The notes under the pieces were generated by a model. That model made no database searches. It was not told the DNA's origin and was given only the letters and a program-made list of their open reading frames with translations. Position numbers and translations under genes: made by a program. A DNA stretch of 63,789 nucleotides, counting the filler, from Stramenopiles sp. TOSAG23-3 (Eukaryota): NCBI GenBank assembly GCA_900128585.1. It is 48 parts of 48 records of this genome, joined end to end, with 100 filler letters (N's around TTAATTAATTAA, not from the genome) between each part and the next. Parts side by side here need not be neighbours in the genome. Positions count along the whole stretch, not along the records: positions 14,745 to 15,980 come from LT646202.1; 47 more parts are not named here. The stretch is one strand, 5' to 3'. Below, in pieces: positions 6,611-38,099 of the stretch (its first letter is position 1; every line of letters starts with the position of its first letter).

Positions 6611-6728
6611 NNNNNNNNNNNNNNNNNNNNNNNNNNNNNNNNNNNNNNNNNNNNTTAATTAATTAANNNNNNNNNNNNNNNNNNNNNNNNNNNNNNNNNN
6701 NNNNNNNNNNCGTAAGAAGAGAAGGGAG

Positions 6729-7247: not shown

Positions 7248-7384
7248 AATTAAGAATACCATGGCAGATTACATAAATTACGAAGTCTCGTCTTCAATTT
7301 AGTTCTTAAAAAATATGTTCACAGTATGTGAAGGAACGTAAACATTTAATGGACAAAAAAGGAGACAACAATATAGTGATTGAC

Positions 7385-7594
7385 GAAGAAGAAAGAAGAA
7401 AGAAGAAAGAAGAAGTGGAAAAAAAGAAGCAAGGAAGAAGAAGAAAGAAGAAAGAAGAAAGAAGAAAGAAGAAGAAGAAAAGAAGCAAGAAGAAGGAAAA
7501 GAAGCAAGAAGCAAGAAGCAAGAAGCAAGAAGCAAGAAGAAGAAGAAAGAAGAAGAAGAAGAAGAAGAAAAGAAGCAAGAAAGAAGCAAGAAGA
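7385..7594 (+). repeat. Degenerate (GAA)n/(AAGAAGC)n purine microsatellite
   Basis: Read directly; it explains the spurious K/R/E-rich and F/S/L-rich ORFs here. Confidence 0.95.
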
Positions 7595-8051
7595 TAGAAG
7601 TCGCACTGCTGCACGAGGAGGTACGTAGCGGTAGTTTGTAATTTTAATGATGTAAAATAATAATTACATTATTCTTTGTGTACAAAAGTGAGGAAAAGGT
7701 AATACAGATGGACGGCTGTAAAGAATACGGCAGGTTAAAGATGTAACATTTAGTTGGTTGTTGCACGTTTAAGTTGATAGACATTATTGTGCAGTGTATT
7801 GGTATCATTTGTGTTTTAGGTTGAGAGTGTTTAGGTGTACTGTTAGAATTGTTGACAATCTTCTAACGATGCCAAGGAAAGGAACTAAACGTATAGTTCA
7901 CCCACAAATCAAGAACGCCGACGAGACTATTAGAACTCGCTTTCAAAACGANNNNNNNNNNNNNNNNNNNNNNNNNNNNNNNNNNNNNNNNNNNNTTAAT
8001 TAATTAANNNNNNNNNNNNNNNNNNNNNNNNNNNNNNNNNNNNNNNNNNNN

Positions 8052-8755
8052 AAAACAATACAACCGAAACCCCATATATCGTATGTTTTTGAGCATGAGT
8101 CCAGATGGTTCTCAATTAACAGCCTGACTGTGGCTGTTTCTTTGCACTTGATTGCATGATGAAGTGGTAGGTTGCCTAAAGAGTCTGTTTTTCGGACTGC
8201 ATTTGGGTACTGCTTATAAATTAAATCTATTCCTTTCTTCGCAACGCCATTTTTACACGCCATGTGGAGCGCATACATTCCTTCTTGGCTTTTGATGGAA
8301 CACACGGCACCATCATCTGAGATAATTTTAGCCAATTTATCCAGCCGATTCTGTTCATTTAGAAATTTGTTCTTCTGTCCCCATTCTTCCAATAGTTTCC
8401 GAAATTCATGGTCCGTTTGTGATAAATTTATGAACCGGATCAAATCTTTCTTGCAAAATTTTCGGGCTATTTCCCTTAATTTGCGGTCAACTTTCCATCC
8501 ATGTTTCAAAAGCACTTTCACAATGATCGTATGACCACAAAAGCACGCTATGTGAATGCATTTCATCCCCTCGGCGTAGACGTAATCTCGTGAGTACTTT
8601 TTAGGAGAAATATTGTCTACCATTACTATCTTATCTTCCAGCCCTTCGACCTTCAACTGCTTGTTGAGAGATATGGCCCAATCCACCGCATTCAAATCTC
8701 CGTTTTGGCAGGCAATGTACAAAGCGTCATCATGCGACAAACCATGCGTTTCCAT
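8052..8755 (-). CDS. Ankyrin-repeat protein (3' truncated)
   Basis: ALYIACQNGDLNAV, CIHIACFCGHTIIVKVLL, YALHMACKNG, GNLPLHHAI. Confidence 0.85.
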
Positions 8756-9431
8756 TGAACAGTTCTGACTGAGCTAGACGGCAAAGCACTCAATGAAATT
8801 GAGGCTCAAAACAGAATGTAGGAGTTCAAAACCAGGAGAAATGTTTCTGTGGCTAAAACACTCGGCGCAGCTATTTCAATAAATTGTCGTCGTGTTGGAA
8901 AAGATTTCAATGTGTGTGGTCACCAGTACATTTTAATGCACAATTGGAATTGCCAAATAATCAACAAATGAAAACAAAAGAATATAAATACACAGTAATG
9001 AAATTTTCTTACTTCATTTAATTAATACCAGGTTCAATGTACACTACAAATCCGATTTTGTGTCCAGAGACCAGAGAGGGACGAGGGACGTGAACTTTTT
9101 TTTATTAAAAAACTAGCAGGGAGTTAGTGTTACGCAAAATAACATCTAATAACAACATCTTCTAAAATGACGAAAATTTTCTAAGATAAATTCTTAGTTC
9201 TTTTTTTTTTTTAATAGAAGATATTTTTAATATTTATTCTAGTCGTTCTATTTAAAATATTTAAAATATTTTACCGTTTGTTTTTTTGTTANNNNNNNNN
9301 NNNNNNNNNNNNNNNNNNNNNNNNNNNNNNNNNNNTTAATTAATTAANNNNNNNNNNNNNNNNNNNNNNNNNNNNNNNNNNNNNNNNNNNNAAACCACCC
9401 CCTGAACCGGCTAGCATATGGGACGATTGTT

Positions 9432-9818
9432 TCAGTTGAACTTGAGCGTTATCTTTCCACTTTTTGTAGACAGGTTTCTGCCGTGTTTTTCCCACTCGTC
9501 TTTTATAGACTTTTTGTAGCGGCTGTTCTTTTTTACAATATCTTTTTTGTTGACTCTATCTTTGAGGATAAAGTAGTAATCAAAGGTATCGTCGTCTCCA
9601 CTGAGCTGGGTCATCTTGTAGAAGACGCCCTTTTTGTACTCAAGCTTCGACGTAATGGAACGGTCGCAACTTAATCGGTCTTTGCCGATTTCAATTTTTT
9701 TGCGGTCTTTGTAGAACCACAAACGAACCCAGTCCTCTTTGTCCCTATGTTCGTGCTCCTTGTCGGTGACCGAACTGGGAACGTAGTAGTTGACGCTATC
9801 GATTTGGATAACCGACAT
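9432..9818 (-). CDS. Hypothetical protein, probably viral (PLV-associated)
   Basis: 128-aa complete ORF divergent from the packaging ATPase across only 38 bp. Confidence 0.65.
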   Translation of the reverse strand: MSVIQIDSVNYYVPSSVTDKEHEHRDKEDWVRLWFYKDRKKIEIGKDRLSCDRSITSKLEYKKGVFYKMTQLSGDDDTFDYYFILKDRVNKKDIVKKNSRYKKSIKDEWEKHGRNLSTKSGKITLKFN

Positions 9819-9856
9819 CTATACAATAAGTATATAAATTATCTCAGGTATAGTAA

Positions 9857-10609
9857 ATGGAAAATGACGAGTTAAACATCATTCCAATAAAGGACGATGA
9901 AGACGAAATCAAACGGGGTAAAAAGAAACAGCTACACCCACACTTACCCGACATATACAAAGGTGAACTGCTTGCAATAATCGCCCCAATCCGTAGTGGC
10001 AAGTCGGTACTTTGGAACAACCTGCTACTGTCAGACGCTTTCTTCAACGATATGTTTTCATCGGTGAACATCATAAGCAATACCATCGCTTCTGACAAAT
10101 CTAGCAGGTTCAGTTACAAAAAATTTAAGAACACCTGTCACGACATGTACGACGACTCGATAATTAAAAATTTAATCAAGCGACAAAAGACAAAGATAGA
10201 CAACAACGACGAGGATACAAGTTTCTGTTTGATACTAGACGACTTGCTGAATCAGTTTTCAAAGACAGGAAGGAGGGGACAAGAAGCGATTTCGTTTGCT
10301 AGTCGTTTTAGACACTACCGAAAAATGCCAGACCCAGCCATGCTGCTCTACTCGACCCAGAGGTACTTTGACTTAAATAGGGTTGTTCGAAACAATGCTA
10401 CTGGACTAATGTTTAGCGGAAACATAAAGAGCACAAAGGAATGGGAGGATATCATGGACGACTTCGCCGATGCTTTTGAAGGAAGAAAGCACTTCGAGGA
10501 GATGATAAAGGTCGTACAACAGAAACCGTTTCAATGGTTGTACTTAAAAATGGACAGGACTCCACCAGAGGCGTACCTCAACTTTACGACAAAGCTTTAC
10601 CCAAAATAA
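9857..10609 (+). CDS. A32/FtsK-HerA-like DNA packaging ATPase of Polinton-like virus/virophage type
   Basis: LHPHLP leader, Walker A APIRSGKS, Walker B LILDD, Arg finger SRFRHY, STQ motif and VRNN; 250 aa. Confidence 0.88.
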   Translation: MENDELNIIPIKDDEDEIKRGKKKQLHPHLPDIYKGELLAIIAPIRSGKSVLWNNLLLSDAFFNDMFSSVNIISNTIASDKSSRFSYKKFKNTCHDMYDDSIIKNLIKRQKTKIDNNDEDTSFCLILDDLLNQFSKTGRRGQEAISFASRFRHYRKMPDPAMLLYSTQRYFDLNRVVRNNATGLMFSGNIKSTKEWEDIMDDFADAFEGRKHFEEMIKVVQQKPFQWLYLKMDRTPPEAYLNFTTKLYPK

Positions 10610-10731
10610 TATGTTTAAATATAAATATAATNNNNNNNNNNNNNNNNNNNNNNNNNNNNNNNNNNNNNNNNNNNNTTAATTAATTAANNNNNNNNNNNNN
10701 NNNNNNNNNNNNNNNNNNNNNNNNNNNNNNN

Positions 10732-11970
10732 ATTGCAGCTTTTGCAAGGGAGTGTCCCGCCAGCATGAAGTCTTGCTTGGGCCCAAAGGCACTCCGAGTC
10801 CTAGCCCGCATAGCACGTTCTATGTCATGGGCAGAATCATCGTAGAGCCCACGAACGAACGGAATTTGGTATATAGTCTCATCGTAGTCTTCCAGACCTC
10901 CAGTTTTTTTCCGATTTTTATTGCCACCCTTCATGCCTTCTGCTAATTCTACCATCTGTTTTTCTTTCAGAATTTGGCTCTTATCTTTTGCAACTGCATT
11001 CGCTGCACTGTCGACCATTTTCTCGTCGTGACTCGAGGAGATCCAGTCCATAAAGGACGACACTATATAAAGGGCCATAAAGGATCCCGCAGCGCAAAGC
11101 ATCCACATGCTGAATTCCAGCACACCAATCTGCCCATTTTGTATAATATTGATGTACACGCCATAATCATAAATCACCTTACTGACCAGCCCCGTGGTCG
11201 GGTCCAGAATCTTTTTCCCATCGAGTTTACCCCTCATACCCGGAACTTGCGCCACCCTAATTTCTGCAGTCGGCACGTAAGAAAAGGCTCCTATGTCCAT
11301 TGGTGTTCTGGGAAAATTGTAGTACTCGACCGTGACGCCCAGCACCACACCCGTTTGCCTGTACGTAGACTCAGGCACAGATATCTTTTTCTGCGTATAA
11401 AACCCGTCTTTGTTCACCTTGTCCAGGCTGACAATACTAGTGGCAATCAAATCACCAATGGTCCCCCACTCAATTTTCCCCTGCCCGCTCATTGCCCGGT
11501 TGTCGGATCTAAACACCTTAATACCGTCCGTAAACGTCCTCACTTGCTCGATTTCAGTGAGCTTTATTCCAAAGGTCAAATACTCAGGATGCTTTGTGTA
11601 GTAATAATTCTTGGCCCCCGTTGACAGGTCCTCGACGACCCTCAACGTGCGAATAAAGAACCCGCTTGGCGTCCGCTCTGCGATACAACTTACGCGCGCA
11701 CAAGGCTCGCAACTTGACGCAGTCGTGTCTCCCGCAAAGCCGTTAACTTCCGGTGCCTCAGGGTACAAGTCTTTGTCAAAACCCTTTGGGGCCCCCTTAC
11801 TGCAATAGGCAGGTGTTGGAATGTTTACTAGTTTCGCATCGAACTCGTTACTGCTGTTATAGGCGTACGGCAACACCAAGCTTTCTGGATTGTGGAGGCG
11901 ATACATATTCGGAGTTCCAAACATTTGGTAAACGGTGTATAAGAGCGAGAGAACCACACAACATCCAAAT
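10732..11970 (-). CDS. P2X-receptor-like ion channel (partial)
   Basis: TM1, a Cys-containing ectodomain, then YGVYINIIQNGQIGVLEF + TM2 ending in ..FMDWI, matching P2X YGI.....G..G.F...TM2..D. Confidence 0.7.
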
Positions 11971-12070
11971 NNNNNNNNNNNNNNNNNNNNNNNNNNNNNN
12001 NNNNNNNNNNNNNNTTAATTAATTAANNNNNNNNNNNNNNNNNNNNNNNNNNNNNNNNNNNNNNNNNNNN

Positions 12071-12147
12071 CCGGTTGCTTTGACATCTTCCGCAGCCAGC
12101 GGCGTTGCCAGAATGAGGCAGAGGGCAGCGATTCGTGCAGTTTTCAT
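12071..12147 (-). CDS. 5' end of a putative secreted protein
   Basis: MKTARIAALCLILATPLAAEDVKAT reads as a signal peptide and runs off the contig end. Confidence 0.35.
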
Positions 12148-13407
12148 TGATGAATTTAAGTTCAGATTGATAATGGCTTGTTATTAGAATACGATAAGTC
12201 TTTTTGATGGGGTTCAGAAGGAGAACGGCGGGAAAAAAGTGCACCGTGAATTTGGCAAAGTAGTAGAAACGGTATCCCAGTAGGAAGAAGAAGAGGAGAA
12301 CGACAAGGCCATATAAAATATGCTGCATTGGAAAAATAATGGATTATTTGGTACGCTGTGCGTTGGAAAAAGTAATGGATTATATATGGACGCTGTACCT
12401 CGTACCTCCCCCTCTTTTTTTCTCCTAGAGCATCCACCAATGACAACCAATCATTTATAGACGAATTTATTACAGGTCGTAGCAAACCAAAAGTAAATGA
12501 AAACAAGTACAGAGGAAAGTATGAATAGACTAAGTGGAGTATGGAGAGTAGGGATTGTATAGTATGTACAGGAAAATAGATTTTGAAGTACTTAGTAAAA
12601 AGTTAACGAAAATGAAGTCCCAAAACTTATACATACATTGATCTACTTCACGAAACGAGTCTTCCGACATCTTACCATTTCCCATGCTATACAATGTTCG
12701 TATTGTTCGTCTCTTTTGGAATTTAATACTTCCTTGTTATTTATATGTTAAACTGATTATTTATAATTAAAAAAAAGAAGAAGAATGAAAAAAAAATACC
12801 GAAAATATTTATTACCCAGTGTACACCGAACGGGCGAACGGGGAACGGAACCGGCCTGTCCAATACTATGTACAAAAAGGGACAGTTGAATCGTTGGGCT
12901 GTGCGCAAGAAAAGAAGTGATAAAACAGACACGTTGGCGAGAAGATAGCCACGACCCTTTGTTGCCCGGTTAGTTGGGTATGCACCATTGTGTGATGATG
13001 GACTTGTATCTCATCATATTATTTTTAATGTTTCGTTATTTTATTTTATATTGTGTTGTACTATATATATAGATATATAGGTTACACATAGTAGAGTATG
13101 AAATAGTAGGAAGAAAATACAAAGGCTTTAATAATCAATCACTTATCTTTATAACTTAAATTGAATTTAATCCTCTATTTAGACCAATGAGTATAATAGC
13201 ACTAGACTATAATAAATAATAGGAACAGTAGAACTATTTATCATATCGTACGCATTTTGGTTTTTTGTTCTTCTTAAATTTCATGCGGAAGCCATCAAAT
13301 TGATTTCNNNNNNNNNNNNNNNNNNNNNNNNNNNNNNNNNNNNNNNNNNNNTTAATTAATTAANNNNNNNNNNNNNNNNNNNNNNNNNNNNNNNNNNNNN
13401 NNNNNNN

Positions 13408-13645
13408 CGATGTCCTCCCCCTCGGACGTCGAGGCGTCGCTGGTCGTTTCGTTGTCCTCGCTATGGGTGTCCAGGTCGGAAAAGAGGGACGAGAAGAACG
13501 GGTCATCGTCGAAATTTGTCAGCTGATCGTCCGAATCGATCGATATGGTCGATGGCGAGATGTCCTCGCCCAGCTGTTCCAGTCCAACCTTCTTCTGGCC
13601 AACGACGGGCGGCAGCCCTGCCCCCTTGCCCACCGCGGTAGACAT
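13408..13645 (-). CDS. Hypothetical protein N-terminus (acidic, 3' truncated)
   Basis: GC-rich ORF starting at ATG after AT-rich upstream DNA. Confidence 0.5.
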
Positions 13646-14567
13646 GTTGGTCTGGTGGTGGTGGCGGTGTGGTTCGTAGCGGTACGTGCCAGGCCGAAAC
13701 GTCTATCTCTTTTTCTTTCTTTCGTTAGTTCGTTTGTTACCCCCTGAATCAATAGTTGGTGTTTCTTTCCTGACCGTGTAAGTGATGATGGGTAGCGGAT
13801 ATACATTCGTTGTTTACTTCATTGTCAGAATTTTAAAGTGAAACAGATGTAATTAACTAATACAAACATTTAGCACAAGACGATGTGGGCACGGCGGGGG
13901 TGTTCGATGTCGACGATCTCGGGTGATTATGTTCCAACAACATACAATGCTATTTTTATGTATTCAATGATAGAGGTTGGAGTGGGAGGATGGAGTTCAT
14001 CTTCTTACTTCTTCTTCTTCTTTCTTCTTTCTTCTAAATTCTTTTTTTATTTTTTGGGCTGCTCTACTCCTGTCGTAGTTAAGATGTTTTAGGATTAGGG
14101 ATTCATTCATCAGGGACCCCAATAGAAGTCAAGGTGTTTAAATAGGTAAATAAATGTATAAAAGAATATGCATGTATTATACTTATATGTTTTATGAAAA
14201 AAAGAAAATGCAAAGAACAAATACAAGTACTGTACCAAGGGAAGATGGAATAGGTAGTACAGGATAAATAACATAGGAATAGCTTGGCTACGACAAAGCT
14301 GACTGTTGAATGTGAATATTTTTAAAGAAGAACGGATAAAATACTATTTAAAATGTATAGTCTCTACTATATTTCCTTCCTATATATATGATGATGATGA
14401 TCTCATTATTACTTTACCTATCAACTCAAAATAGTTTAATTATAATTACTGTATAATGTTATATGTAATTTAAACAGTACAGTAGTAAGATTTTAATTTA
14501 AAAAACTCTTTTATTTTATTACCGAGCGAGCGAGCGAGCGACCAGAAAAATTCAATTTGCTCTTGTA

Positions 14568-14644
14568 CTTTCTTCTTTCTTCTTTCTTCTTTCTTCTTTC
14601 TTCTTTCTTCTTTCTTCTTTCTTCTTTCTTCTTTCTTCTTTCTT
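14568..14644 (+). repeat. (TTCTTTC)n 7-bp tandem repeat
   Basis: Read directly; lies at the contig end. Confidence 0.95.
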
Positions 14645-15491
14645 NNNNNNNNNNNNNNNNNNNNNNNNNNNNNNNNNNNNNNNNNNNNTTAATTAATTAA
14701 NNNNNNNNNNNNNNNNNNNNNNNNNNNNNNNNNNNNNNNNNNNNGAAAAGCCACGGGGAACAACAATGCATTTAGTGTTTCTTTTGATAGGGTTGGTGTT
14801 GAAGTATGTTTTGACACCTTGGACGATGGAGTTCATGTAACGGGTGTTAAATTTGGGGGCGGCAAATGATAAGTAGATGTGGGTATTGGGTAGCACTTGT
14901 TATGTATTTTTCATTTTTTAGATCCTGCAAGAATTACGTATCATTATTTAATTCTTTATTTAACCTTGAGTCGCGAAGTAAGATAACTATGCATAACATA
15001 CCAGTATTATAATACAACGTGGTGTCGTTCAAATAAAAAAGAGTGTTTCTCGGTAAAGAAAATGTACGTGAAAAAGACGTTTTTCCCCATTGAAAGAACT
15101 TCTGATAGTAGCGTACCTCTTAAATTCAAGATACACTTCGCAATTTTACCATATTTTATTAAAGATCTTACGACGAAGCTAAATTTAATTACTTAAATAA
15201 CAGCCAATTTTCTTGTTTTAAAATATGGTTTTAGAGCGAGTGTAAATTATAAATACGCGTGCACCAAGATTTTTCTTATGTTATCATACCTTGATAGTCT
15301 ACGAATGATCTCTTTATTTCTCTCGTAGCTAAAAAATATTTTTTCTTGCTTCTGGCAGCGGGGTGGCGACTAACAAAAAAAGAACTAAAGCTGATATATA
15401 ATAATATTCCTGCGATGGTTCTTTTTCTATTCGGTAATATTGTCTGCTCAAGTTTCACCCCCATCTATAAAACTAAATGTGACTGCCATCA

Positions 15492-15980
15492 TCAGCTAGT
15501 ATGCATAAGATCTGAAAGGCGGAGACGAATGGGGCCTTTGTATGGCTCGTCTGTATCCAATACCTTCCCCTTTTGCATCACGTCCAGCTTGCCTTCGCGG
15601 ACGAGTGCTCTAGCAGCTTCTCGAGTGGGCTCCATCAACTCTCTCCAGTTCTGCTTTCGCATTCGCCGAGGGATTTCACTGGGTCAACATGTTTTTCCTT
15701 TATCGCGCGTCCTCAGAAGCTTTAAAATATTTTCTTTCAATAGCACCTTCATACTACCCCCACCCCCCCAGTCTTTGATCAGTGTACTTTGCGACGAGGT
15801 TGACGATTGATTCGAATGCGATAATAACTCCTTTAACCATCGGCTCTCGGCCTGGGTTGGTTCTCGGATAGAACCAGGCTTCAGATCTCCTAGTTGGAAT
15901 GGGCCGTAAGCTACCCGGCGTAAATTCAAGACTTGGTGGTTAAGGTGTGCCAGCATTCTTCTTACATGGCGCTTTTTCCC
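15492..15980 (-). CDS. RsuA/RluB-family pseudouridine synthase C-terminus fused to a DUF3253-like domain, with in-frame TGA at 15684-15686 (candidate Sec)
   Basis: GKKRHVRRMLAHLNHQVLNLRRVAYGPFQLGDLKPG (RsuA family), then ILKLLRTRDKGKTC*PSEIPRR..WRELMEPTREAARALVREGKLDVMQKGKVLD..YKGPIRLR (DUF3253). Ends TGA TGA at 15494-15489. Confidence 0.8.
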
Positions 15981-16080
15981 NNNNNNNNNNNNNNNNNNNN
16001 NNNNNNNNNNNNNNNNNNNNNNNNTTAATTAATTAANNNNNNNNNNNNNNNNNNNNNNNNNNNNNNNNNNNNNNNNNNNN

Positions 16081-16671
16081 AAAGGCAAGCTGTTTCGACA
16101 CATTGAAACACATCCGGGAACGAAAGCGAAAGCCGAATGGGCACAGCATTACATGAAGGCGAAAAAAGGGTGCGTGACAAATTTCTCCGAACGCTTGATC
16201 GCGTTTGCGGCAGTAGAGGGTATTATGTTCTCTAGCTCGTTCTGTGCTCTGTTCTGGTTAAAGAACAAAGGCCTCTGCCCGGGCTTAACTTTCTCCAACG
16301 AGTTAATCTCAAGGGACGAGGGGTTGCACCGGGACTTTGCGGTTGCCATGTACAAGATGTGTCCTAAATTACCACGAAAAAAGGTACTTGAAATCGTGGA
16401 AAGTGCGGTACATGCTGAGATGCAATTCGTCAACCATTCGCTACCGGAAAATTTGAGAGGCATGAACCATTTGATGATGTACCAGTACGTTCAATTTGTG
16501 GCGGACCATCTGTTAAACGCGTTGGGTTACAATAAGCATTACAAGGTTACGAACCCCTTTCCATTCATGGACATGATCAGCCTAGAAGGCAAAACGAATT
16601 TTTTCGAGAGGAGGGTGGCCGAATATTCCAAGCCGTCCGATATCTCATTCGGGATGGACGTTGCTTTTTAA
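16081..16671 (+). CDS. Ribonucleotide reductase small subunit (R2), 5' truncated, probably viral
   Basis: FAAVEGIMFSSSFCALFWLK, SNELISRDEGLH, NPFPFMDMISLEGKTNFFERRVAEY, C-terminal F. Confidence 0.95.
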   Translation, partial: KGKLFRHIETHPGTKAKAEWAQHYMKAKKGCVTNFSERLIAFAAVEGIMFSSSFCALFWLKNKGLCPGLTFSNELISRDEGLHRDFAVAMYKMCPKLPRKKVLEIVESAVHAEMQFVNHSLPENLRGMNHLMMYQYVQFVADHLLNALGYNKHYKVTNPFPFMDMISLEGKTNFFERRVAEYSKPSDISFGMDVAF

Positions 16672-17036
16672 AATTTGAAATTGCACGGTTCAATGGTCAG
16701 TTCTCTTGGATCGCCCCTTGGATCTTCTGCACAATGAGGAAGAAATACAGAGAGTACACTATACCGGTTTAGAATCTGCTGTATTTCTTCCGGATACTCT
16801 CTTTTATTTGGGTTGTTTTCAAACCATTCCAATGCTGTTGCAAAGTCTTGTTCAACCACACGCTTTACTTCGTCCAAATGTTCTTTGCATTTTATGGAAC
16901 ATGCCGTTAATGTACATTCCCCACACCCGGTTGTTCTTAGATAATTGCACATGTGATCTTTGAATTGTCGGATCAGCATTTGCGAAGCTCTGAAACAGTC
17001 CACTGCTTTCTCGAATTTTTGTGGTTGGTTTCCCAT
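16668..17036 (-). CDS. Hypothetical protein (MG start, Cys-rich), probably viral
   Basis: Complete 122-aa ORF whose stop overlaps the RNR stop. Confidence 0.6.
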   Translation of the reverse strand: MGNQPQKFEKAVDCFRASQMLIRQFKDHMCNYLRTTGCGECTLTACSIKCKEHLDEVKRVVEQDFATALEWFENNPNKREYPEEIQQILNRYSVLSVFLPHCAEDPRGDPRELTIEPCNFKF

Positions 17037-17078
17037 TTTTAAAGTGTGTGTATTTATATATACTAAATTGTTTTTTAT

Positions 17079-17315
17079 ATGAGATATTTAAGGTATATTA
17101 TTGTTCTACTGTGTTTGCATGCTTTTGTGGTAACACTTCCTTTTCCATGGATCTGCCGCCACTACACTCCAAAGAATAATACCGGGGGACTGGAATTGTT
17201 ACATCATTTCCATTCCAAGGTCTCCAATTACAGTATTGCCTCTGGTACAGCCCTAGGACTTCGGCGACACGGTAAATTAATTCCATGGGACGATGATTTG
17301 GACGTGGTTGTTCCA
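17079..17315 (+). CDS. LicD/fukutin-family nucleotidyltransferase with signal anchor (3' truncated)
   Basis: GTALGLRRHGKLIPWDDDLDV matches the LicD motif GTLLGAxRH.GFIPWDDDID. Confidence 0.85.
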
Positions 17316-18228
17316 NNNNNNNNNNNNNNNNNNNNNNNNNNNNNNNNNNNNNNNNNNNNTTAATTAATTAANNNNNNNNNNNNNNNNNNNNNNNNNNNNN
17401 NNNNNNNNNNNNNNNTCCCTTTCATTATCTATCAATTCATCGACTTCTTCGTTTAGTTTCTTGTTCTTAATAATGAGCTTATTATTTTCTGCTTAAGTAC
17501 AAACAAACCGTTTGTTGCGTCTCTACTTACAGTCGTTGTAACGGTTTATCCTTTGCGAAAAAAACTGAAATGCGTAATAAAATAATTAATAAAAGAAGAA
17601 GGGGCAAACATTACTTGACGAGAAACTGTATTTATAGGTGGCGGTTTGCCTATCAATTCAATAACAGGACATGAAAGCCGCTATCTTAAAACTTGTGTGA
17701 CCAGTTCCTTTGCGTACGTATACAGTACCGGCACAGTGTAAACAGAACAGCTCTCTGCAGAGGTATTTAATTTATTGTATTACAAGACTGTTTTGCTTCA
17801 TTGCATTCATGCTACAGCTCGTTCATTTGTTACTGGTATTCCTACCTGTACATATATGAAACAGAGTTACAATGCACACCAGTTGGTTACCGAAATAATA
17901 ATAATAATAATAAATTAAAAAAATAACAAACAACTACAGTACAACGTGGACAAGACTAGAACGACTAACTGTTATTTTATTATTCATTCAGTATAATATC
18001 GAATGAGAATGAATGATGGATGAGAATAAAATAATATAAATAATCCAACAAACAGTATTACGCGGGAGTGTGCAGCAGCAACATCGAATGTATGTGTGCT
18101 TCCTTATCCTTATGCCCTTAACCATTGGCACGAAAACTGCCCACGAAAACGTAATAGTGCGATTCCCAAAAAGATTTATAGAATAATTCCAAGAGGGAGT
18201 GATTGAGGGGAAACTAGACTGCATCGCC

Positions 18229-18650
18229 ATGTCGAACCAGGGGAAACATAATGAAACCCGTCCCTCTCGGGGAACGGGCAGTGGTGTTCCAACCAGTATA
18301 TTAAAACTGCGGCCGACGGCGAATCCCACGTGGGAATCGCCCAGGCCGGTTCGAGAAGGTGGCCCGGGTGGAAAATACAGAGAGAGAGAGAAGAAAAAGA
18401 AGAGTTCTGCCGCTCGCAAGCAAACATTGCTAAGGGCAAGGTTGTCCAAGAAGGTTTCTGAGAAAGAGGTGACGGTCGAAGACTTGCAGTCTGAACTTGA
18501 AGAGGCAAAGTCATCCCTTCGGCTAACTCAACAACTAGCCGCAAGTAGGTTATCGGACGCGCAGTTTTTGAAAGCAGAAAATAATAAGCTCATTATTAAG
18601 AACAAGAAACTAAACGAAGAAGTCGATGAATTGATAGATAATGAAAGGGA
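18229..18650 (+). CDS. Coiled-coil protein N-terminus (3' truncated)
   Basis: ORF from GCCATG with heptad-rich VEDLQSELEEAKSSLRL... Confidence 0.55.
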
Positions 18651-20779
18651 NNNNNNNNNNNNNNNNNNNNNNNNNNNNNNNNNNNNNNNNNNNNTTAATT
18701 AATTAANNNNNNNNNNNNNNNNNNNNNNNNNNNNNNNNNNNNNNNNNNNNAGAAATTTAATATATCCCCACACTTACTTTGTCTTCCTGTGTGTGTGTGT
18801 TCGTTTTATGTTTAAAATGTTTGTTTACATAGCTTTACTCGTAGAACGCTATAAATCTTATGATAAGAACGTTATCACAATCTCGCGGGTACGATTACAT
18901 TAATATAATATGTTTTTTTTTTAATTGAATGCATGAACTAGTCGTTCGGTATGATATCATAGTAGAAAAACATGCCAACTTCAGTCATCATTTTAAATGG
19001 AAGCCACTTAATGCAAAAAAACATTCTTCAGTTTGTAGATAATAGAATCCAATTGAACAGTTGTCTGTTTTCTAATACTACGTACGCATAAAAATCTGCT
19101 CTGATTATCGAATGATAGTCCTATGAAGAATTACGATAGTAGTAATTCATACCAGTAACAAAAATATGAAGAGGATGACGCCGCCGGCCGAAAGAAATAC
19201 GAACCAAGGAATAAACAAAAGTACTCTACATAGTTGAGGATTAATCATACTTCCCATTATATTTTCCTGTCTATTCCCAACATCAATTCAAGTTTTATGT
19301 CATAAATTTTAACGAGGAAATACAACATAGTTCAGTAAAATATTTTTATTTTTTATATTACCCACTACGACGCTAAAAAATGCAGCCAAGGGTTTATCAT
19401 TGCTTTGTTTTTAATTTCAGTTCTCTTTTCAATTTTTCAAGACACACAATTATATTTTGACGTTGCAAAAAGATGACTCCTAAAATAATAGCTAAGTTAT
19501 TACGTTTCATCATATTCCTACCTCTCCTCCTTATAATTAATTGTATTAGCTCTTGGTACGTACCTGGTACCTGTAAAGGAACCAGGTACCAGGTATTAAA
19601 TTATTGCTGTACTTACTGGGTCGTCTTCTAATGCATATTTAGTACGACCACGGCAGCGGGCCAATTTGCTATTCATCTCAACTCTCAACAACCCTCCCTC
19701 TCCCGCCTAATACAATAAACTTTTTAACACACACAGACGACTAATACTTGAACGACTTTTCTTATATTATACTCTTCGGAACCTCTTCTTACTTCACACA
19801 ATAGTAATTACCTGTTATGTTGCTACGCCCGAAGCAAATCTATATGCCTCGATTTAAGTCGAGTTATTAGTCGTCTACTTATAATACTATATCTATTGAT
19901 GATATGGAATTAGTTGGTGTAATAATACAAAAAAGTTACCACTGCTGTACAAAAAAAATAATTATTATTATTTCTCAGATTTCTTNNNNNNNNNNNNNNN
20001 NNNNNNNNNNNNNNNNNNNNNNNNNNNNNTTAATTAATTAANNNNNNNNNNNNNNNNNNNNNNNNNNNNNNNNNNNNNNNNNNNNCTGTGTAATGTACCA
20101 AGGTATAAAATGAAGGTTTGGATGGATGGGGAAGAAGAAGAAGAAGATTTCTTTTTTTTGACATAGTTTTTATCCGTAATATTTTCATAGGAAATTAAAT
20201 TCTGATTTATATACTGTGTTGAATTTATATAGACATAGTATTGAAATCAATGATGAATCGAACCAAACAACGTCTTTTTTATTTTTGTGGTAATATGGAA
20301 ATAGAATAGAAATGAAAGAACAAGGGAAATTGATAAAGATAAATATGGTATGTAATGTATTATAAATTATATAGTATTGTTGATAAACTAAGTATATTAA
20401 TAAGGTATACTTTAATGAAAATGACGACTGTATTGTTAGTTCATCATAAAATGTGGAGCTGTGAGCTGTGAGTTGTGAGCTCACAGCCGTCGCTCTTTCT
20501 TATTTACTCGCTATTTTTACCTGGTTCAGATTCTGTGCACCTGTTGTATACGATTACGAAGCAAATAACAAGAGAGTTCTTTCAGCTTTTTGTGGCTGCT
20601 GTGTAAATGATTATTGCCAACAATGATTGACTAAAATACGAAACGCGAAGAATATAATTTTCAACTCTGATGAAACGAAAAATCATTTTAGTTTTTTGTT
20701 TATTCTACATCATATAAACTGGGAACATTACACTACATATACTTCAAACAGTAACGACCAGACTACGGTGTGGACTCTG

Positions 20780-21320
20780 TTACCACGAACCAGCATTGCT
20801 CGAATTTTGGGACAATGCTCTTTTTCGGTATAAAGCCAATCGGTTCGACCCAAGTACACCATTTGTTTCGTTCCAATCGCTGCTGGGGAGGGGGTCTCCT
20901 TCCCCGTCGAGCGGGGAACTAGTCCCAAACGGATCATCCCAGCCGTACGGGTCGTGGGATTTCAGCCTCTCTCTTGCTGGGATTGGTATTGGGCTGGCGT
21001 CAGTTTCCTGGTTCATGTGAGGTACGACCTTCTTTCGGTCTGCGCGGGTGTTTACGGAAATATCACCTTCGTTTAACTTGCCGTCGGTTTCTTTCTGCGT
21101 ATCACCCCAGTGCCTGTACAAGCCCCTCAAATGGTGCGCAGTGCGCCTGAGCAGACAGGGGTCGAACGGAAAGAACGAGTCAAGTGGATTTTCCACGGTC
21201 GCGAGGGCACTGTACTGTTCGTTTTGTTCGCTTTCGCTCACCGAGTTTGGATGATACTGGCTCATTGCTTCTTCGGGTACATTGCAGTTTGCCAGTTGAG
21301 GCGCCACCAGTTTGTTCATG
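20780..21320 (-). CDS. RRN3: RNA polymerase I transcription initiation factor RRN3 (TIF-IA), C-terminal part
   Basis: NPLDSFFPFDPCLLRR....LYRHW is the conserved RRN3 C-terminal motif. Confidence 0.8.
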
Positions 21321-21509
21321 NNNNNNNNNNNNNNNNNNNNNNNNNNNNNNNNNNNNNNNNNNNNTTAATTAATTAANNNNNNNNNNNNNNNNNNNNNNNN
21401 NNNNNNNNNNNNNNNNNNNNATACAATGGACGCCATTTATTATCAATCGTGCAAATGTTATACTGTAATTAAACAAATAATGCTATTAATAAGCTCTATG
21501 TACAATCAA

Positions 21510-22034
21510 ATGGAAACAACAAAGAAGAAGATATTGTTTAAACGTATGAACCAACTGTATGGAATGATAGTAAGACCACCGTATTTAGAAGCACGAAGAA
21601 GGGATTTCATCACATTCATCGAAAACCATTTGTTAAAGATGTTGAAAACAAAGGAATTGTACCGAATATATTACACCATTCTGCCTTTAGAGAAGCATTT
21701 TAAAGGTGTAGAAGAACAGACTTTTATTTCTGCCATAAAGGACGAAAAGACGTATAGAAAAGCTTTAGTACGAATCAAATGTGAAGACTTTCAATGGTAC
21801 CGGCCGAAGAACATTACAGTCACACAAAGTATACCGGTAGAGGCATTGGTGAATAGGGACGGCATGGCTGTGGGCAGAGGCTTGAAAACCGCCGGTAATG
21901 TAGTGTTTCGGTGTTTGAAATGCGGCGAAATAAGCAGTACAGCAGAGTTGTATTGGAAACATCAAGAGACACACGGTAATCTTAGAGTACGAAAAATTCA
22001 AAGAATAGAAAGAGTAAATCCATTTAAGTTTTAA
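21510..22034 (+). CDS. Hypothetical protein with C-terminal C2H2 zinc finger (copy 1)
   Basis: FRCLKCGEISSTAELYWKHQETHG. Probable start METTKK at 21510 (ORF open from 21426). Confidence 0.75.
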   Translation: METTKKKILFKRMNQLYGMIVRPPYLEARRRDFITFIENHLLKMLKTKELYRIYYTILPLEKHFKGVEEQTFISAIKDEKTYRKALVRIKCEDFQWYRPKNITVTQSIPVEALVNRDGMAVGRGLKTAGNVVFRCLKCGEISSTAELYWKHQETHGNLRVRKIQRIERVNPFKF

Positions 22035-22653
22035 AGTTCAAGGAATGTGGACGCGCCTTTATCACTGGCATGTAAGTAAATGCTGGTAGTGGCGATGGAT
22101 GCATGGCCTAAATTTTTCGATACTGTAGCAAGATCGCACTTGTTACGTAGGCTTATCGTAGCAAAAGCATGCCTCAGGTAATGGGCGGAAGCGTTGTATT
22201 TACCTAGCACCTTATTAACGCGTTTTGAGGCAGCACTCTTACTGAGAGCCTTGTTGCATCTGCCTTTGAATATGAAGCCTTTGCGAGTCATCAATATAGG
22301 CTTTAGCAAGGCTGAAGTACGAGGACCCATTGGAATTGTCCTCACTTTTTTGCCTTTACCGATTACCGTAAATGTTAGACAGCCATCGGCACGTTCCTTG
22401 ATCATATTCCTATGTAAAGTACGGCATTCAGTTAATCTGAGTCCTAGGTAGAACAGCAATTGTAACAGCAGTTTTGTATCACCCTTTGCACTGAGTATGG
22501 CTTCGATACACGACTGTTGCGGTAAATGGCGTTCAACTCGGATCTGGTTTTTCCGGGGAACTTTCAAGCATTTTGAAATGTCTTTGTTAAGGTAATCCAT
22601 TCGGTAACAATATTTGAAAAAGCTTTTAACGGCCGCAATGCAACGTCTGCTCG
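22031..22653 (-). CDS. XerC/D-type tyrosine recombinase (copy 1), 5' truncated
   Basis: Catalytic set R (GLRLTE), K (GKGKKVR), HxxR (HYLRHAFAT), H (LGHASIATT), Y (IYLH). The frame stays open to the contig end with RRCIAAVKSFFKY. Confidence 0.95.
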
Positions 22654-23605
22654 NNNNNNNNNNNNNNNNNNNNNNNNNNNNNNNNNNNNNNNNNNNNTTA
22701 ATTAATTAANNNNNNNNNNNNNNNNNNNNNNNNNNNNNNNNNNNNNNNNNNNNATTATAGTATATATATAATAATAGGTATATAGCATAAGTAAATGTTT
22801 TTTCCATCATCAATCACAATTTGGTGCTGCGCTACTTACCTTCTTACTACTTTGAAATCGTTAATTTTTGATTGAGGTATATACAAGGACACAACATGAA
22901 CTGAGTTGCATTAGTACACGCACATGTATAATATTACGAGGACGTAGCTAATGTAATGGTACCGGTATTTTTAGAATACATAGAATGAACGTAGCGTAGC
23001 ATTGGAAACAAAGACAAGTTGAAAGACTTTTGGGAAAAGAATGTATAAAAATAAAATAGGCATTTGTTTGTACTTATATTGTTATTCATATACAATCTTT
23101 GATTTTGTGTCCCTCATTCATCCCTCACCTCAGCCCTCCTCAGCCCTCCTCAGCCCTCAGATCAAAATAGAAAGTTCATAAAAAATAAAAAACGGAGTTT
23201 GTTGTTTTTTTGGATGATTGATTGTGATTGATTGATTGATGGCGTCGTTAAAAAGAAAAAATGACGGCTCATAGTATAATAGCATTGATATATCAACCGT
23301 TATTGTTGTCAGTGCACTTTTTTGTACATTTTTTTCTTCTTTCTTCGTCATCTTCTATTTATCTTCCTTCTTTCTTTCTCCTCCTCTGTCGATCAAAAAA
23401 AAAAAAGAAGAAAAAAGAAGAAGAAGAAAAAAGAGGAATTAAAATATATTAAATACAGCACCATAGCATCATGTATTCAATCAAATCAATCAGCCACAAA
23501 AAAAAAAAACACACAAGAAATAGAGTTGAGATACGCCGTGTTCCCGTTTGTCTGCGTTTGGTTGCACTGATAAATGAAAATTGAAAAGAAACGAAAATCT
23601 ACAAC

Positions 23606-23917
23606 ATGTCTACAACCTACTCCTTTACGTACACCGCCGACGAAAACGGCGAACAAGTTGAAAACGCTGGCCCAGCACAGATGCCCGCCTACGTTGCCAA
23701 GCGACTGAATGGCTCGAAGAAGCGGTTCAAGAAGAAAGGTACCCCTGCAGAGCGAGAGGCAGCAGTTGAAGCCCGCCGCCAAGCTGTTTTGGCAGAGAAG
23801 AAGAACAAAGCCAGGAAGTACATCGACAAAGTTGAGTCGTATGCCCGCAACGCTGCAGCACAGAAGGAGGGCGAAGAGAATGCCGAGGAAGACTTCTCTG
23901 AAAAGTGCGACGAGTAA
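23606..23917 (+). CDS. Small coiled-coil protein, possibly stathmin-like
   Basis: Complete 103-aa ORF; MPAYVAKRL...EREAAVEARRQAVLAEKKNKARK. Confidence 0.55.
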   Translation: MSTTYSFTYTADENGEQVENAGPAQMPAYVAKRLNGSKKRFKKKGTPAEREAAVEARRQAVLAEKKNKARKYIDKVESYARNAAAQKEGEENAEEDFSEKCDE

Positions 23918-24121
23918 GCAAACTTTCAAGCAACAACTGAACCATGCTACGTGTCCCGATTTGGTTTGGCAGGGTTAAGTGGCGCANNNNNNNNNNNNNN
24001 NNNNNNNNNNNNNNNNNNNNNNNNNNNNNNTTAATTAATTAANNNNNNNNNNNNNNNNNNNNNNNNNNNNNNNNNNNNNNNNNNNNTTACAAATTTTTAA
24101 CGAGTTTCATGTCATGCCTCC

Positions 24122-25318
24122 TCACCTCCTCTTCCCCTGAACAGACGGCTTTCTTTCCTGCCAACTGCCCCGATTACTGCTGCTACTTTCACGTCCGCCG
24201 CTTCCCCTTTCACGACTGCTTCTTTTCTTCTCTGGTGAACCACTTCTTTGGCTACCTCGCGAACTGCCCCGCTTTTCCGCCCTTTCCCGCTTACTCCTTC
24301 GTTTGGCGTCTTTGTATTCTTTAATTTTCGCGCCGACAGCTGCAATCTCCGTATTTACAGCATCGTACGCCTGCCGAAGTTCCTCTATGCGCACTGTTAT
24401 TGCCATGTTTTCCTCTCTACTGTCGTCCTGCTCCGACTGGGCCTTCAGGCTAGCGTACCTGCTTTGTGTCTGTTCCAACTGGGCGACCAACTGCCCCCGG
24501 GCCATCTCGTCTGTCGCAAGGTATACCATCGTTTTGTACATGCTGGTCAGTTGCGGGACTCTGCTGTTCACATGGGCTTGCTGGTCCTCTTCCGCCAACA
24601 TCGCTGACAGCTCGTCCTGCATGCGCTTTACCTTTTCTCGATACGAATCGTGCTCTGTGTAACTCGACTTTATCGTCTTGCTGTACTCCTTCTGTTTTGC
24701 CGCAAGTGCCGCTTCCGCTTGCCGCGCAATCGCGGTCCAGTCGCGGAACATGGCGGCAACCAACTCGTTCCAAAACGCATCTTCTAAAGCCTTGATCCCT
24801 TCCCTTGCATTCATGACTGCTGCTCGCTGGTCCACCACTGGCTTGTTCGATGACAGCAAATGCTCGGCGTTTTTTATCCGCCGCTCACACTTTTTCGACT
24901 GCGACACCCAGCTATGGCTTTTTAGGACATCGCACGGCTCGTTCAGTTTTCTATTGTATCGGTTCCTTTTCAATTCTATGGTCAGCTCGGAAATCTGTTT
25001 GCCAAGCGCCTGGGATATCGCCTTGCAAATTTTATTTTTGTATTTGGTCACTACCAGCCTAACCTTTTCGATCAAACTAAATCGAAGCGAGCCGACGTTT
25101 ACCATCGCTACCATGTTTTCTCTCTCTTTGTGGTACCCTTTCCATGCCTGTCCCTTTGCCTTCTCATCCTCCTGGTGGATAAGGGCTGCCAGTGTGCTAA
25201 CTGTCTCGATGTTCTTGCGAAACTCGGTCATCTGTTTCTGCATCCCACAGTACTGAGCATGGGGCATCGTTTCCATTTCAGTTTCTAGCTCGGATATTGC
25301 TTTTAAGTGATCCCTTAC
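24122..25318 (-). CDS. Long coiled-coil protein, C-terminal part
   Basis: More than 384 aa open, heptad-rich, with an RS-rich tail. Confidence 0.7.
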   Translation of the reverse strand, partial: VRDHLKAISELETEMETMPHAQYCGMQKQMTEFRKNIETVSTLAALIHQEDEKAKGQAWKGYHKERENMVAMVNVGSLRFSLIEKVRLVVTKYKNKICKAISQALGKQISELTIELKRNRYNRKLNEPCDVLKSHSWVSQSKKCERRIKNAEHLLSSNKPVVDQRAAVMNAREGIKALEDAFWNELVAAMFRDWTAIARQAEAALAAKQKEYSKTIKSSYTEHDSYREKVKRMQDELSAMLAEEDQQAHVNSRVPQLTSMYKTMVYLATDEMARGQLVAQLEQTQSRYASLKAQSEQDDSREENMAITVRIEELRQAYDAVNTEIAAVGAKIKEYKDAKRRSKRERAEKRGSSRGSQRSGSPEKKRSSRERGSGGRESSSSNRGSWQERKPSVQGKRR

Positions 25319-38066: not shown

Positions 38067-38099
38067 TAGTAGACCCATTCGCAGAGGCAATGACGTTGA

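What the first reader, a model, noticed from the sequence alone, without database searches (positions are those of the whole stretch)
15492..15760. In-frame TGA at the conserved Cys of a DUF3253-like domain: candidate new selenoprotein (CU motif)
Seen: on the minus strand the frame reads ...ILKLLRTRDKGKTC-TGA-PSEIPRRMRKQNWRELMEPTREAARALVREGKLDVMQKGKVLDTDEPYKGPIRLRLSDLMHTS, then stops. The ORF track ends at the TGA (15684-15686), yet about 63 further codons keep an intact domain. Known: the DUF3253 consensus as I recall it is ..GKTICPSEVARAL..WR.LM..VR.AA..L...G.....QKG.......GPIRLR, so the TGA sits at the conserved Cys. UGA/Cys pairing with an intact downstream domain is the standard selenoprotein signature, and some marine stramenopiles have large selenoproteomes. 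Inference: Sec in a Cys-Sec pair, in a family I do not recognise among catalogued selenoproteins. I found no canonical SECIS by eye, only a long-range ATGAtGGCAG / CTGCCaGA pairing (15492-15483 with 15358-15351) that is too widely spaced.
Basis: partly seen in the sequence, partly recalled or inferred. Interest (0 to 1): 0.85.

Follow-up and report, generated by a model that had tools for sequence, protein, structure and literature searches.

The report
Selenocysteine codon in a DUF3253 domain
The apparent stop codon inside this marine eukaryote's gene most likely encodes selenocysteine at the one conserved cysteine of a small winged-helix domain of unknown function, pointing to a selenoprotein family that gene callers cut short and that I could not find described.

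Summary
On the minus strand a DUF3253 (PF11625) domain runs straight through TGA 15686..15684, which aligns with the family's nearly invariant Cys.

The TGA is not an error. It stands in DNA contigs of two other studies and in one RNA contig.

The decisive result is comparative. 20 of 24 related metagenome loci carry TGA at this same column and 4 carry Cys. They fall into about nine sequence groups and four domain architectures. The sequence after the TGA is under purifying selection, with pN/pS 0.11-0.41.

Several lineages have an ATGA...GA kink-turn hairpin just after the stop.

The window is a chain of about 48 unrelated 1.2-kb contigs. A 12-kb relative, L001, shows the gene is a pseudouridine synthase with a C-terminal DUF3253 domain.

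Weak points:
- No genome was available to check the Sec machinery.

MGMT selenoproteins are known. I found no paper naming DUF3253. Verdict: probable new eukaryotic selenoprotein family.

The parts
15687..15980 (-). Coding sequence before the TGA. It holds the last ~45 residues of an RsuA/RluB-type pseudouridine synthase domain, a Ser/Thr/Gly-rich linker, and helix 1 of the DUF3253 domain up to Cys. The frame is open to the contig end.
   Evidence: The full gene is seen in L001, which is 1 mismatch from the window over this stretch: S4 + PseudoU_synth_2 + DUF3253.
15684..15686 (-). In-frame TGA, the proposed selenocysteine codon (C-U-P-S-E).
   Evidence: Aligned with the nearly invariant Cys. 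Same column is TGA in 20 of 24 related loci. No other letter is reported here in DNA runs X1 and X5 or in RNA run X15.
15495..15683 (-). 63 codons after the TGA, making up the rest of the DUF3253 winged-helix domain.
   Evidence: Pfam match runs to 15516. AlphaFold model has pLDDT 93.3 and TM 0.86 to 2ns0. There are 0 differences from L001 here, against 12 in the 747-nt 3' flank.
15516..15740 (-). Extent of the Pfam DUF3253 (PF11625) match.
15489..15494 (-). Tandem TGA TGA terminators. Their overlap spells ATGA at 15492..15489.
15351..15492 (-). Candidate, non-canonical SECIS. The 5' ATGA (15492..15489) faces the 3' GA (15352..15351) in an internal loop. Above it lie a 7-bp helix, a ~19-nt side hairpin, a 6-bp GGGGUG/CACCCC helix, unpaired AAA and a long A/U-rich apical stem.
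   Evidence: MFE -43.5 kcal/mol, z -3.56, 0 of 200 shuffles as stable. Two of the four window-versus-L001 differences inside it fall opposite U and keep the pair. By pattern alone it is not significant.
14747..14872 (+). End of the convergent neighbouring gene (TsaA/TrmO-like by my reading of its motifs, not tested). It bounds the 3' UTR to about 615 nt.

Best explanation
The TGA at 15686..15684 is a selenocysteine codon. The gene belongs to an uncultured, A+T-rich marine eukaryote. It encodes an S4 + RsuA/RluB-type pseudouridine synthase with a C-terminal DUF3253 winged-helix domain. That domain's single conserved Cys, just before helix 2, is replaced by Sec next to a Cys (C-U-P-S-E). Translation continues through the UGA, directed by a SECIS element in the 3' UTR, and ends at the tandem UGA UGA 63 codons later. 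This is one member of a wider eukaryotic DUF3253-Sec clade. The same domain, with UGA at the same column, is attached to an MGMT alkyltransferase domain that itself has UGA at its active-site Cys, to a SAP domain, or stands alone. Shown: the UGA/Cys alignment, its conservation across lineages, selection on the downstream sequence, and SECIS-like hairpins in several relatives. Inferred: actual Sec insertion, which RNA element serves this gene, and the role of the residue. I take that role to be a reactive nucleophile or redox centre on a nucleic-acid-binding module.
For: (1) DUF3253 spans the TGA at E 3.8e-24. The TGA aligns with the Cys of 2ns0 and of all full-length homologues aligned. The closest full-length homologues read T-C-C-P-S-E, including one from Chlamydomonas sp. 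UWO 241 and a Telonema subtile transcript.
(2) 20 of 24 loci fetched from metagenome contigs have TGA at this column and 4 have Cys. The TGA loci give 13 distinct proteins in about 9 groups at 45-99% identity to the window, in 4 architectures confirmed by Pfam.
(3) In the MGMT fusions the only two in-frame TGAs fall at the two conserved Cys positions, P-U-HRV and C-U-PSE, while the other Cys are ordinary.
(4) pN/pS after the TGA is 0.11-0.41 in 8 of 8 pairs tested.
(5) A strict ATGA / helix II / GA / helix I pattern occurs within 150 nt after the stop in 8 of 12 non-duplicate TGA loci, against a background of 0.046 per 150 nt (35 hits in 114,972 nt). L016-L021 have one 30 nt after the stop by a fold-based scan. 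The L002/3/5/7 hairpin has 22 pairs, 3 of them with compensatory changes, and z about -3. The two Cys-form loci tested have none near the stop.
(6) The TGA stands in DNA contigs of runs X1 and X5 and in an RNA contig of X15. A poly(A) RNA contig of X16 covers 15389..15632.
(7) Window versus L001: 1 synonymous difference in 486 coding nt and 12 in 747 nt of 3' flank.
(8) TGA also ends 6 of 18 long ORFs in the window, so it is not generally a sense codon there.
(9) There is no bacterial-type hairpin after the TGA, z 0.0.
Against: No canonical SECIS was found in the target's own 3' UTR by my strict scans. The only candidate has a 19-nt side hairpin inside helix II and a ~87-nt apical part, and my loose pattern that admits it fires at 0.11 per 150 nt. 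Rfam found no SECIS anywhere, but it also missed the best-looking candidates. L013 has no convincing SECIS, and those of L009 and L014 are doubtful. L010 has too little 3' sequence. SECIS hairpins of L011, L012 and L018 are not more stable than shuffles, z -0.2 to -0.7. No genome is held, so tRNA-Sec, SPS, EFSec, SBP2, PSTK and SecS could not be sought, and there is no tRNA in the window. The 20-of-24 count comes from a search seeded with the window's protein and truncated relatives (alignment A2), so it is biased towards the TGA clade. One 85%-identical relative of L018 has Gly at the column (P0154). Contigs, not raw reads, were laid, so rare variants would not show.
Confidence: 0.78

Rival explanations
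1. In this lineage the TGA is a working stop. The protein ends ...GKTC, and the 63 downstream codons are a recently stranded relic, for example after loss of a functional SECIS.
For: No canonical SECIS in the target. Compared with the L002-type element, the matching stretch of L001 lacks the ATGA and has GT where relatives have GA; I judged this by eye. Gene callers end the protein at KTC (P0166).
Against: The TGA is shared with 19 other loci, so it is inherited and not a new nonsense mutation. All nearly invariant residues after it are intact. There are 0 differences from L001 in the 189 nt after the TGA, against 12 in 747 nt of flank. A stop there would leave only helix 1 of the domain. A very stable hairpin places ATGA opposite GA.
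Confidence: 0.09
2. The UGA is decoded without selenium, either because the organisms read UGA as Cys or Trp or through SECIS-independent read-through.
For: UGA=Cys would restore the family consensus. Under that reading the frame would end at a TAG 12 codons later. One public gene call already reads the L010 gene with W at both TGAs (P0291).
Against: In every read-through protein the TGAs sit only at the one or two conserved reactive Cys positions, while the other Cys use ordinary codons. About 400 codons of the L001 gene hold a single TGA. TGA ends 6 of 18 long ORFs in the window. The pattern holds in A+T-rich and G+C-rich lineages alike. SECIS-like hairpins are enriched after the stops.
Confidence: 0.06
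3. Sequencing or assembly error, or a bacterial contaminant with a bacterial selenoprotein gene.
For: The contig is only 1,236 nt and sits in a bin of short contigs. DUF3253 is mainly bacterial: 25 of 151 genomes in one class sampled, a count that includes two genomes flagged unpublished.
Against: The TGA is identical in contigs of two other DNA studies, one RNA study and the 12-kb L001. There is no hairpin directly after the UGA. The closest pseudouridine-synthase relatives include an MMETSP transcript and Polarella glacialis. A poly(A) RNA contig covers the gene's end.
Confidence: 0.02

Closest known systems
DUF3253 / PF11625, with the solved structure PDB 2ns0 (RHA04536 of Rhodococcus sp.)
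   Same: Same domain: hmmscan E 3.8e-24, phmmer E 5.9e-13, model-to-structure TM 0.86 at 41% identity. Same C-P-S-E motif before helix 2.
   Different: The known members carry Cys, are mostly bacterial and about 80-130 aa, and are often fused to the DUF2256 zinc ribbon. Here the Cys column is UGA, the host is a eukaryote, and the domain is appended to a pseudouridine synthase.
[quoted passage not shown]
   Same: Relatives L003, L009, L010, L013 and L014 have a PF01035 domain with TGA at the P-C-H-R-V Cys, that is the MDP type.
   Different: The window's gene has no MGMT domain. The text I read mentions no second Sec and no DUF3253 domain in MDP, and it calls GST-MSRA the first fusion of two selenoprotein genes. 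The supplements and the authors' database could not be seen.
Vicinal Cys-Sec redox pair of thioredoxin reductase (the GCUG C-terminus; recalled, not tested)
   Same: Adjacent Cys and Sec, with Cys-Cys in the Cys-form eukaryotic homologues.
   Different: Here the pair is internal, at the N-terminus of a helix in a winged-helix fold. L010 has Ala-Sec and bacteria have Ile/Met/Ala-Cys, so the first Cys is dispensable.
Canonical eukaryotic SECIS (kink-turn AUGA...AA...GA hairpin in the 3' UTR; description recalled, with PMC2375036 section 8 read)
   Same: L011, L012, L016-L021 and L002/3/5/7 have an ATGA/GA core, helix I, helix II of 7-11 pairs and, in some, unpaired A's, 20-90 nt after the stop.
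   Different: In the target the ATGA is made by the two stop codons, helix II is interrupted by a side hairpin, and the element spans about 140 nt. In clade L002-L007 the loop after helix II often starts AG rather than AA.

Membership tests
Eukaryotic selenoprotein gene | In-frame UGA aligned with Cys in homologues | tested here: met
Eukaryotic selenoprotein gene | UGA kept at the same column in diverged orthologues, with coding constraint continuing downstream | tested here: met
   20 of 24 loci. pN/pS 0.11-0.41 in 8 of 8 pairs.
Eukaryotic selenoprotein gene | SECIS element in the 3' UTR of this gene | tested here: inconclusive
   Strict scans find none. There is a stable non-canonical hairpin with an ATGA/GA loop, z -3.56, but the loose pattern is not significant. 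Rfam finds none.
Eukaryotic selenoprotein gene | SECIS element in the 3' UTR of relatives carrying the same UGA | tested here: met
   8 of 12 loci by the strict pattern against 0.046 expected per locus. L016-L021 by the fold-based scan. Compensatory pairs in the L002-L007 clade. L013 has none; L009 and L014 are doubtful.
Eukaryotic selenoprotein gene | Sec machinery in the same genome (tRNA-Sec, SPS, EFSec, SBP2, PSTK, SecS) | not testable with these tools
   No genome held. No tRNA in the window.
Eukaryotic selenoprotein gene | Selenium shown in the protein (75Se labelling or mass spectrometry) | not testable with these tools
   Uncultured source; an experiment is needed.
DUF3253 (PF11625) | Profile match above the gathering score, and the winged-helix fold of 2ns0 | tested here: met
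   85.1 bits against 22.1. pLDDT 93.3. TM 0.86.
RsuA/RluB-type pseudouridine synthase | S4 + PseudoU_synth_2 domains upstream in the same frame | tested here: met
   In L001: PF00849 E 2.3e-16, PF01479 E 9.7e-07. The window contig holds only the last part. The catalytic Asp of the 'GRLD' motif is present in L001; the motif is recalled.
MDP (MGMT selenoprotein) | PF01035 domain with UGA at the PCHR Cys | tested here: not met
   Not met for the window and L001 gene, which has no PF01035. Met for relatives L003, L009, L010, L013 and L014.

The most novel reading that the evidence does not exclude
DUF3253 is a reactive, not merely DNA-binding, winged-helix module. Its Cys/Sec would be a nucleophile or redox switch that acts on damaged or modified nucleic acids. 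Marine protists have upgraded it to selenium and bolted it onto repair and modification enzymes, including a double-selenocysteine MGMT-DUF3253 protein. In the window's lineage it would be served by a new SECIS variant whose AUGA core is formed by the tandem stop codons and whose helix II carries an extra side hairpin.
Probability: 0.2. Interest if true: 0.8.

Novelty: new member of a known kind. Interest (0 to 1): 0.62.

Why it matters
Almost all known selenoproteins are thiol oxidoreductases. A Sec-bearing winged-helix domain fused to a pseudouridine synthase, to MGMT or to a SAP domain would widen where selenium is used.

It would also give the first functional handle on DUF3253, whose structure was solved in 2006 without a function. 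Sec replaces Cys almost only where the Cys is chemically active.

The fusions with MGMT support a link to nucleic-acid damage. So does the photolyase FAD domain found in 4 of 29 bacterial DUF3253 neighbourhoods sampled.

In practice, public gene calls of this clade are wrong in three ways:
- cut at ...KTC (P0166, P0159-P0161);
- started after the UGA (P0002, P0040, P0054, P0085, P0106);
- read with Trp (P0291).

Tried and rejected
- Rfam at E up to 10 on the contig, at gathering score on 19 of the 24 loci, and on the two best SECIS candidates alone gave no SECIS hit anywhere. I therefore treat the library as uninformative here.
- A covariance model built from the L002/3/5/7 hairpin found nothing in the window or in 12 other loci. 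It is probably too sequence-specific.
- MAFFT alignment of the L001 3' UTR with the clade L002-L007 UTRs was not clean.
- GTGA-type cores in L001: one weak candidate about 310 nt after the stop, not convincing.
- Tiny-intron idea for the 19-nt insert in helix II (GT...AG ends): the poly(A) RNA contig X16 record 22 runs through it without a gap, so there is no support.
- No other TGA-bridged frame in the window looks like a coding region by eye; none was tested against Pfam.
- The whole genome is not held.
- The search for related loci with the broad alignments A4 and A5 failed for lack of a conserved stretch.
- The first neighbour tally used poor ORF choices in G+C-rich DNA. I repeated it with GC3-guided ORFs. 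Still only 7 of 29 DUF3253 ORFs were picked up, so the neighbour counts are lower bounds.
- Earlier notes of this scan held nothing on this genome or on DUF3253.
- Parts of the contig without RNA cover in X15 and X16 are not used as evidence.

Full report
WHAT THE WINDOW IS. The 63,789-base window is not one locus. It is about 48 contigs of about 1.24 kb, in descending length, joined by N44-TTAATTAATTAA-N44 linkers. The finding lies on the piece 14745..15980, so the neighbouring 'genes' in the window are unrelated contigs. No whole genome is held for it.

THE OBSERVATION. An open frame comes in from the contig end at 15980, reaches ...RTRDKGKTC, then TGA at 15686..15684. It continues for 63 codons as PSEIPRRMRKQNWRELMEPTREAARALVREGKLDVMQKGKVLDTDEPYKGPIRLRLSDLMHTS and ends in TGA TGA.

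Read through, the frame matches Pfam DUF3253 at E 3.8e-24, with the match running across the TGA. The solved DUF3253 protein 2ns0 aligns its Cys to the TGA. In 53 aligned sequences the C-P-S-E motif is nearly invariant; nine of those rows are TGA loci that I read as C.

IS THE TGA REAL? The contig's words occur in marine metagenomes of 14 studies. I laid four runs as contigs. A 2,010-nt DNA contig of X1 and a 607-nt DNA contig of X5 cover the codon with no other letter. So does a 234-nt contig of the metatranscriptome X15 (15520..15753). A poly(A) library contig of X16 covers 15389..15632. These are contigs, not reads, and X1 may be the source sample. An assembly error is still very unlikely.

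THE DECISIVE COMPARISON. A full HMMER search with the read-through domain found 1,241 relatives at E up to 0.001. I fetched 24 of the best 150.
- The closest full-length ones read T-C-C-P-S-E. They have long K/R-rich N-termini.
- One of them is from Chlamydomonas sp. UWO 241.
- Eight short gene calls begin just after the Cys column and are the most similar in the C-terminal half.

An alignment of the window's protein with seven of these short calls (A2) was used to fetch DNA from metagenome contigs, giving 24 loci. In frame, 20 of the 24 have TGA at exactly this column: K-T-C-U-P-S-E in most, A-U in L010 and S-C-U in L013. Four have Cys. The search was seeded from the TGA clade, so 20 of 24 is not a population frequency. 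The TGA loci still give 13 distinct proteins in about nine groups, at 45-99% identity to the window.

After the TGA, pN/pS is 0.11-0.41 in all 8 pairs compared. A stop codon that stays at one column while the 60 codons behind it evolve under purifying selection is the comparative signature of a recoded codon.

WHAT THE GENE IS. L001 is 99% identical to the window's protein and has 1 nucleotide difference in 486 coding nt. That difference is synonymous, CTA/CTG. It comes from a 12-kb contig and shows the whole gene. Pfam finds S4, PseudoU_synth_2 and DUF3253 in one frame.

The closest pseudouridine-synthase relatives are 35-49% identical over 67-74% of the query and include an MMETSP transcript; a Polarella glacialis protein matches at 45% over 34%. 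The eight I read (P0167-P0174) end right after the synthase domain. The DUF3253 tail is therefore an addition in this lineage. The public call for the same gene stops at ...GKGKTC (P0166).

The other TGA loci carry the domain in other settings:
- L002, L003/L004, L005, L009, L010, L013 and L014 (L006, L007 and L008 by close relationship): behind an MGMT DNA-binding domain (PF01035) whose own active-site Cys is also TGA (P-U-H-R-V). Pfam confirmed this in the five scanned (L003, L009, L010, L013, L014).
- L011: behind a SAP domain.
- L012 and L016-L021: as about 90-120-aa stand-alone proteins.

In the read-through proteins I inspected the TGAs sit only at the one or two conserved reactive Cys positions, and the other Cys are ordinary codons. 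This argues against a UGA=Cys code. So does TGA ending 6 of 18 long ORFs in the window, some of which are probably antisense artefacts.

A Telonema subtile transcript of the MGMT-linked type has Cys-Cys at the column. Sec and Cys therefore alternate between fairly close relatives. One relative of L018 has Gly there (P0154).

SECIS. Rfam gave nothing, not even on the two best candidates presented alone. I relied on my own scans.

A fold-based scan found well-formed elements shortly after the stop codon:
- L016-L021, 30 nt after the stop: gcacacgtatgc-ATGA-...-AA-...-GA-acctatatgtgc.
- L011, 22 nt after the stop: a type-II-like shape with a GGGGAA/UUCCCC mini-stem.
- L012, 61 nt after the stop.

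A pairing-count pattern found the conserved GAGTGA-ATGA-C(A/G)AAACTG...CAGTTTTT-GA-TGTACCCC element of L002, L003, L005 and L007.

With fixed thresholds this pattern hits within 150 nt after the stop in 8 of 12 non-duplicate TGA loci. Elsewhere in the same loci, on both strands, it hits 35 times in 114,972 nt, or 0.046 per 150 nt. Four of the eight hits belong to one clade. The two Cys-form loci tested have no hit near the stop.

RNAalifold on the four clade members gives 22 pairs, 3 with changes on both sides. The two members of this clade that I folded alone (L002, L007) have z about -3. The hairpins of L011, L012 and L018 are SECIS-shaped but no more stable than shuffles. L013 has none that convinces me. 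L009 and L014 are doubtful. L010 has only 69 nt after its stop.

THE TARGET'S OWN 3' UTR. The 3' UTR is bounded by a convergent gene that ends at about 14869, which leaves about 615 nt. No canonical SECIS is in it.

From base to tip, that fold has:
- an internal loop in which G-A-U-G-A (the ATGA made by the two stop codons) faces G-A, flanked by a short lower helix;
- a 7-bp helix UGGCAGU/(G/A)CUGCC(A/G);
- a small side hairpin of about 19 nt;
- a 6-bp GGGGUG/CACCCC helix, then unpaired AAA;
- a long A/U-rich stem.

If the side hairpin is ignored, the AAA lies 13 nt from the core, which is the canonical distance as I recall it.

Two of the four differences between the window and L001 inside this structure lie opposite U and keep the pair. 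Such transitions would do that by chance fairly often. The looser pattern needed to admit this element fires at 0.11 per 150 nt. So the structure is a candidate, not a demonstration. The poly(A) RNA contig retains the 19-nt insert, so a tiny intron is not supported.

WHAT THE DOMAIN MAY DO. The AlphaFold model (pLDDT 93.3) is a winged helix, with the Cys/Sec three residues before helix 2. Foldseek finds 2ns0 (TM 0.86) and then, weakly, generic DNA-binding winged helices: Fur, kleisin/ScpA, DsrD, Z-alpha and MarR.

Several observations point to nucleic-acid damage or modification:
- fusion to MGMT, SAP and a pseudouridine synthase;
- fusion to the DUF2256 zinc ribbon in bacteria;
- a photolyase FAD domain in 4 of 29 bacterial neighbourhoods, from rough ORF calls with 1.5-4 kb flanks and with two unpublished genomes left out.

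That Sec replaces this Cys, in the same proteins in which it replaces the MGMT alkyl-acceptor Cys, suggests the residue is a nucleophile or redox centre. This is inference only.

WHAT IS KNOWN. 'DUF3253', 'PF11625' and 'IPR021660' occur in none of about 8.4 million full texts searched. Other searches turned up:
- The MGMT selenoprotein ('MDP') is listed for algae in PMC7539508 (passages and section 11 read).
- One Sec-containing sequence of this family (against 2,879 Cys homologues) is listed for the GOS data, whose selenoproteins of families shared with eukaryotes the authors assign to bacteria, in PMC2398784 (passages read).
- PMC7539508 lists a 'Hypo' family. PMC2375036 lists three 'hypothetical protein' selenoproteins of Ostreococcus (passages and section 8 read).

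The sequences of these unnamed families are in supplements I could not open. I therefore cannot exclude that a DUF3253-Sec protein is already tabulated without a name. The text I read describes neither a second Sec in MDP nor this domain.

VERDICT. The TGA very probably encodes selenocysteine (0.78). The kind of thing, a eukaryotic selenoprotein with a Cys/Sec pair, is well known. The family, its architectures (including a double-Sec MGMT-DUF3253) and possibly the target's SECIS shape appear new.

Noticed in passing
window 1..63789 (linkers, e.g. 14645..14744 and 15981..16080): The window is a pseudomolecule of about 48 contigs of about 1.24 kb in descending length, joined by N44-TTAATTAATTAA-N44. 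Adjacency of genes across linkers means nothing.
   Followed up: yes
window 15171..15219: About 47 nt are present in the window but absent from L001 and from the X1 contig that spans the site. The same about 40 nt (15180..15219) is matched by over a thousand contigs per metagenome, with unrelated flanks, and also in RNA runs. Many copies share '...CAGTTCGCAGTACAT' on one side. It could be a short dispersed repeat, low-complexity A/T-rich matching, or an assembly insertion. Unexplained.
   Followed up: partly
L003 2467..3258; L009 2091..2816; L010 501..1274; L014 2569..3204; L013 677..1252: MGMT (PF01035)-DUF3253 fusion genes with two in-frame TGAs, one at the alkyl-acceptor Cys (P-U-HRV) and one at C-U-PSE. 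That would make a double-selenocysteine protein served by one 3' hairpin.
   Followed up: partly
window 21369..22705 and 34680..36013: Two contigs carry near-identical copies of a gene pair: a zinc-finger-like ORF (...CLKCGEISSTAELYWKHQETHG...) and, convergent with it, a tyrosine-recombinase-like ORF (...ASAHYLRHAFAT...HASIATTSIYLH...). This looks like a repeated mobile element. The recombinase reading is by eye only.
   Followed up: no
P0291 (public gene call of the L010 gene) and P0166, P0159-P0161: Public gene calls of this clade are either cut at the TGA (...KTC) or translated with Trp at both TGAs, as if by a TGA=W code.
   Followed up: yes
P0154 (relative of L018, 85% identical): It has Gly (K-T-C-G-P-S-E) at the Sec/Cys column, one base away from TGA if the codon is GGA. 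This is either a real loss of the reactive residue or an error in a single 894-nt contig.
   Followed up: no
L025-L058 (bacterial DUF3253 loci): A photolyase FAD-binding domain (PF03441) lies within 1.5-4 kb of DUF3253 in 4 of 29 bacterial loci, and amine-oxidase-type flavoproteins in 3. DUF2256 is fused or adjacent in 2. DUF3253 was found in 3 of 201 genomes sampled from one class and in 25 of 151 from another. The latter count includes two genomes flagged unpublished, whose sequences I did not use.
   Followed up: partly
L001 3843..4952 (minus strand in L001) = window 14747..14869 (+): The convergent neighbour looks like a TsaA/TrmO-type tRNA methyltransferase, so two RNA-modification genes sit tail to tail. 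This reading is by eye from motifs and was not tested with Pfam.
   Followed up: no
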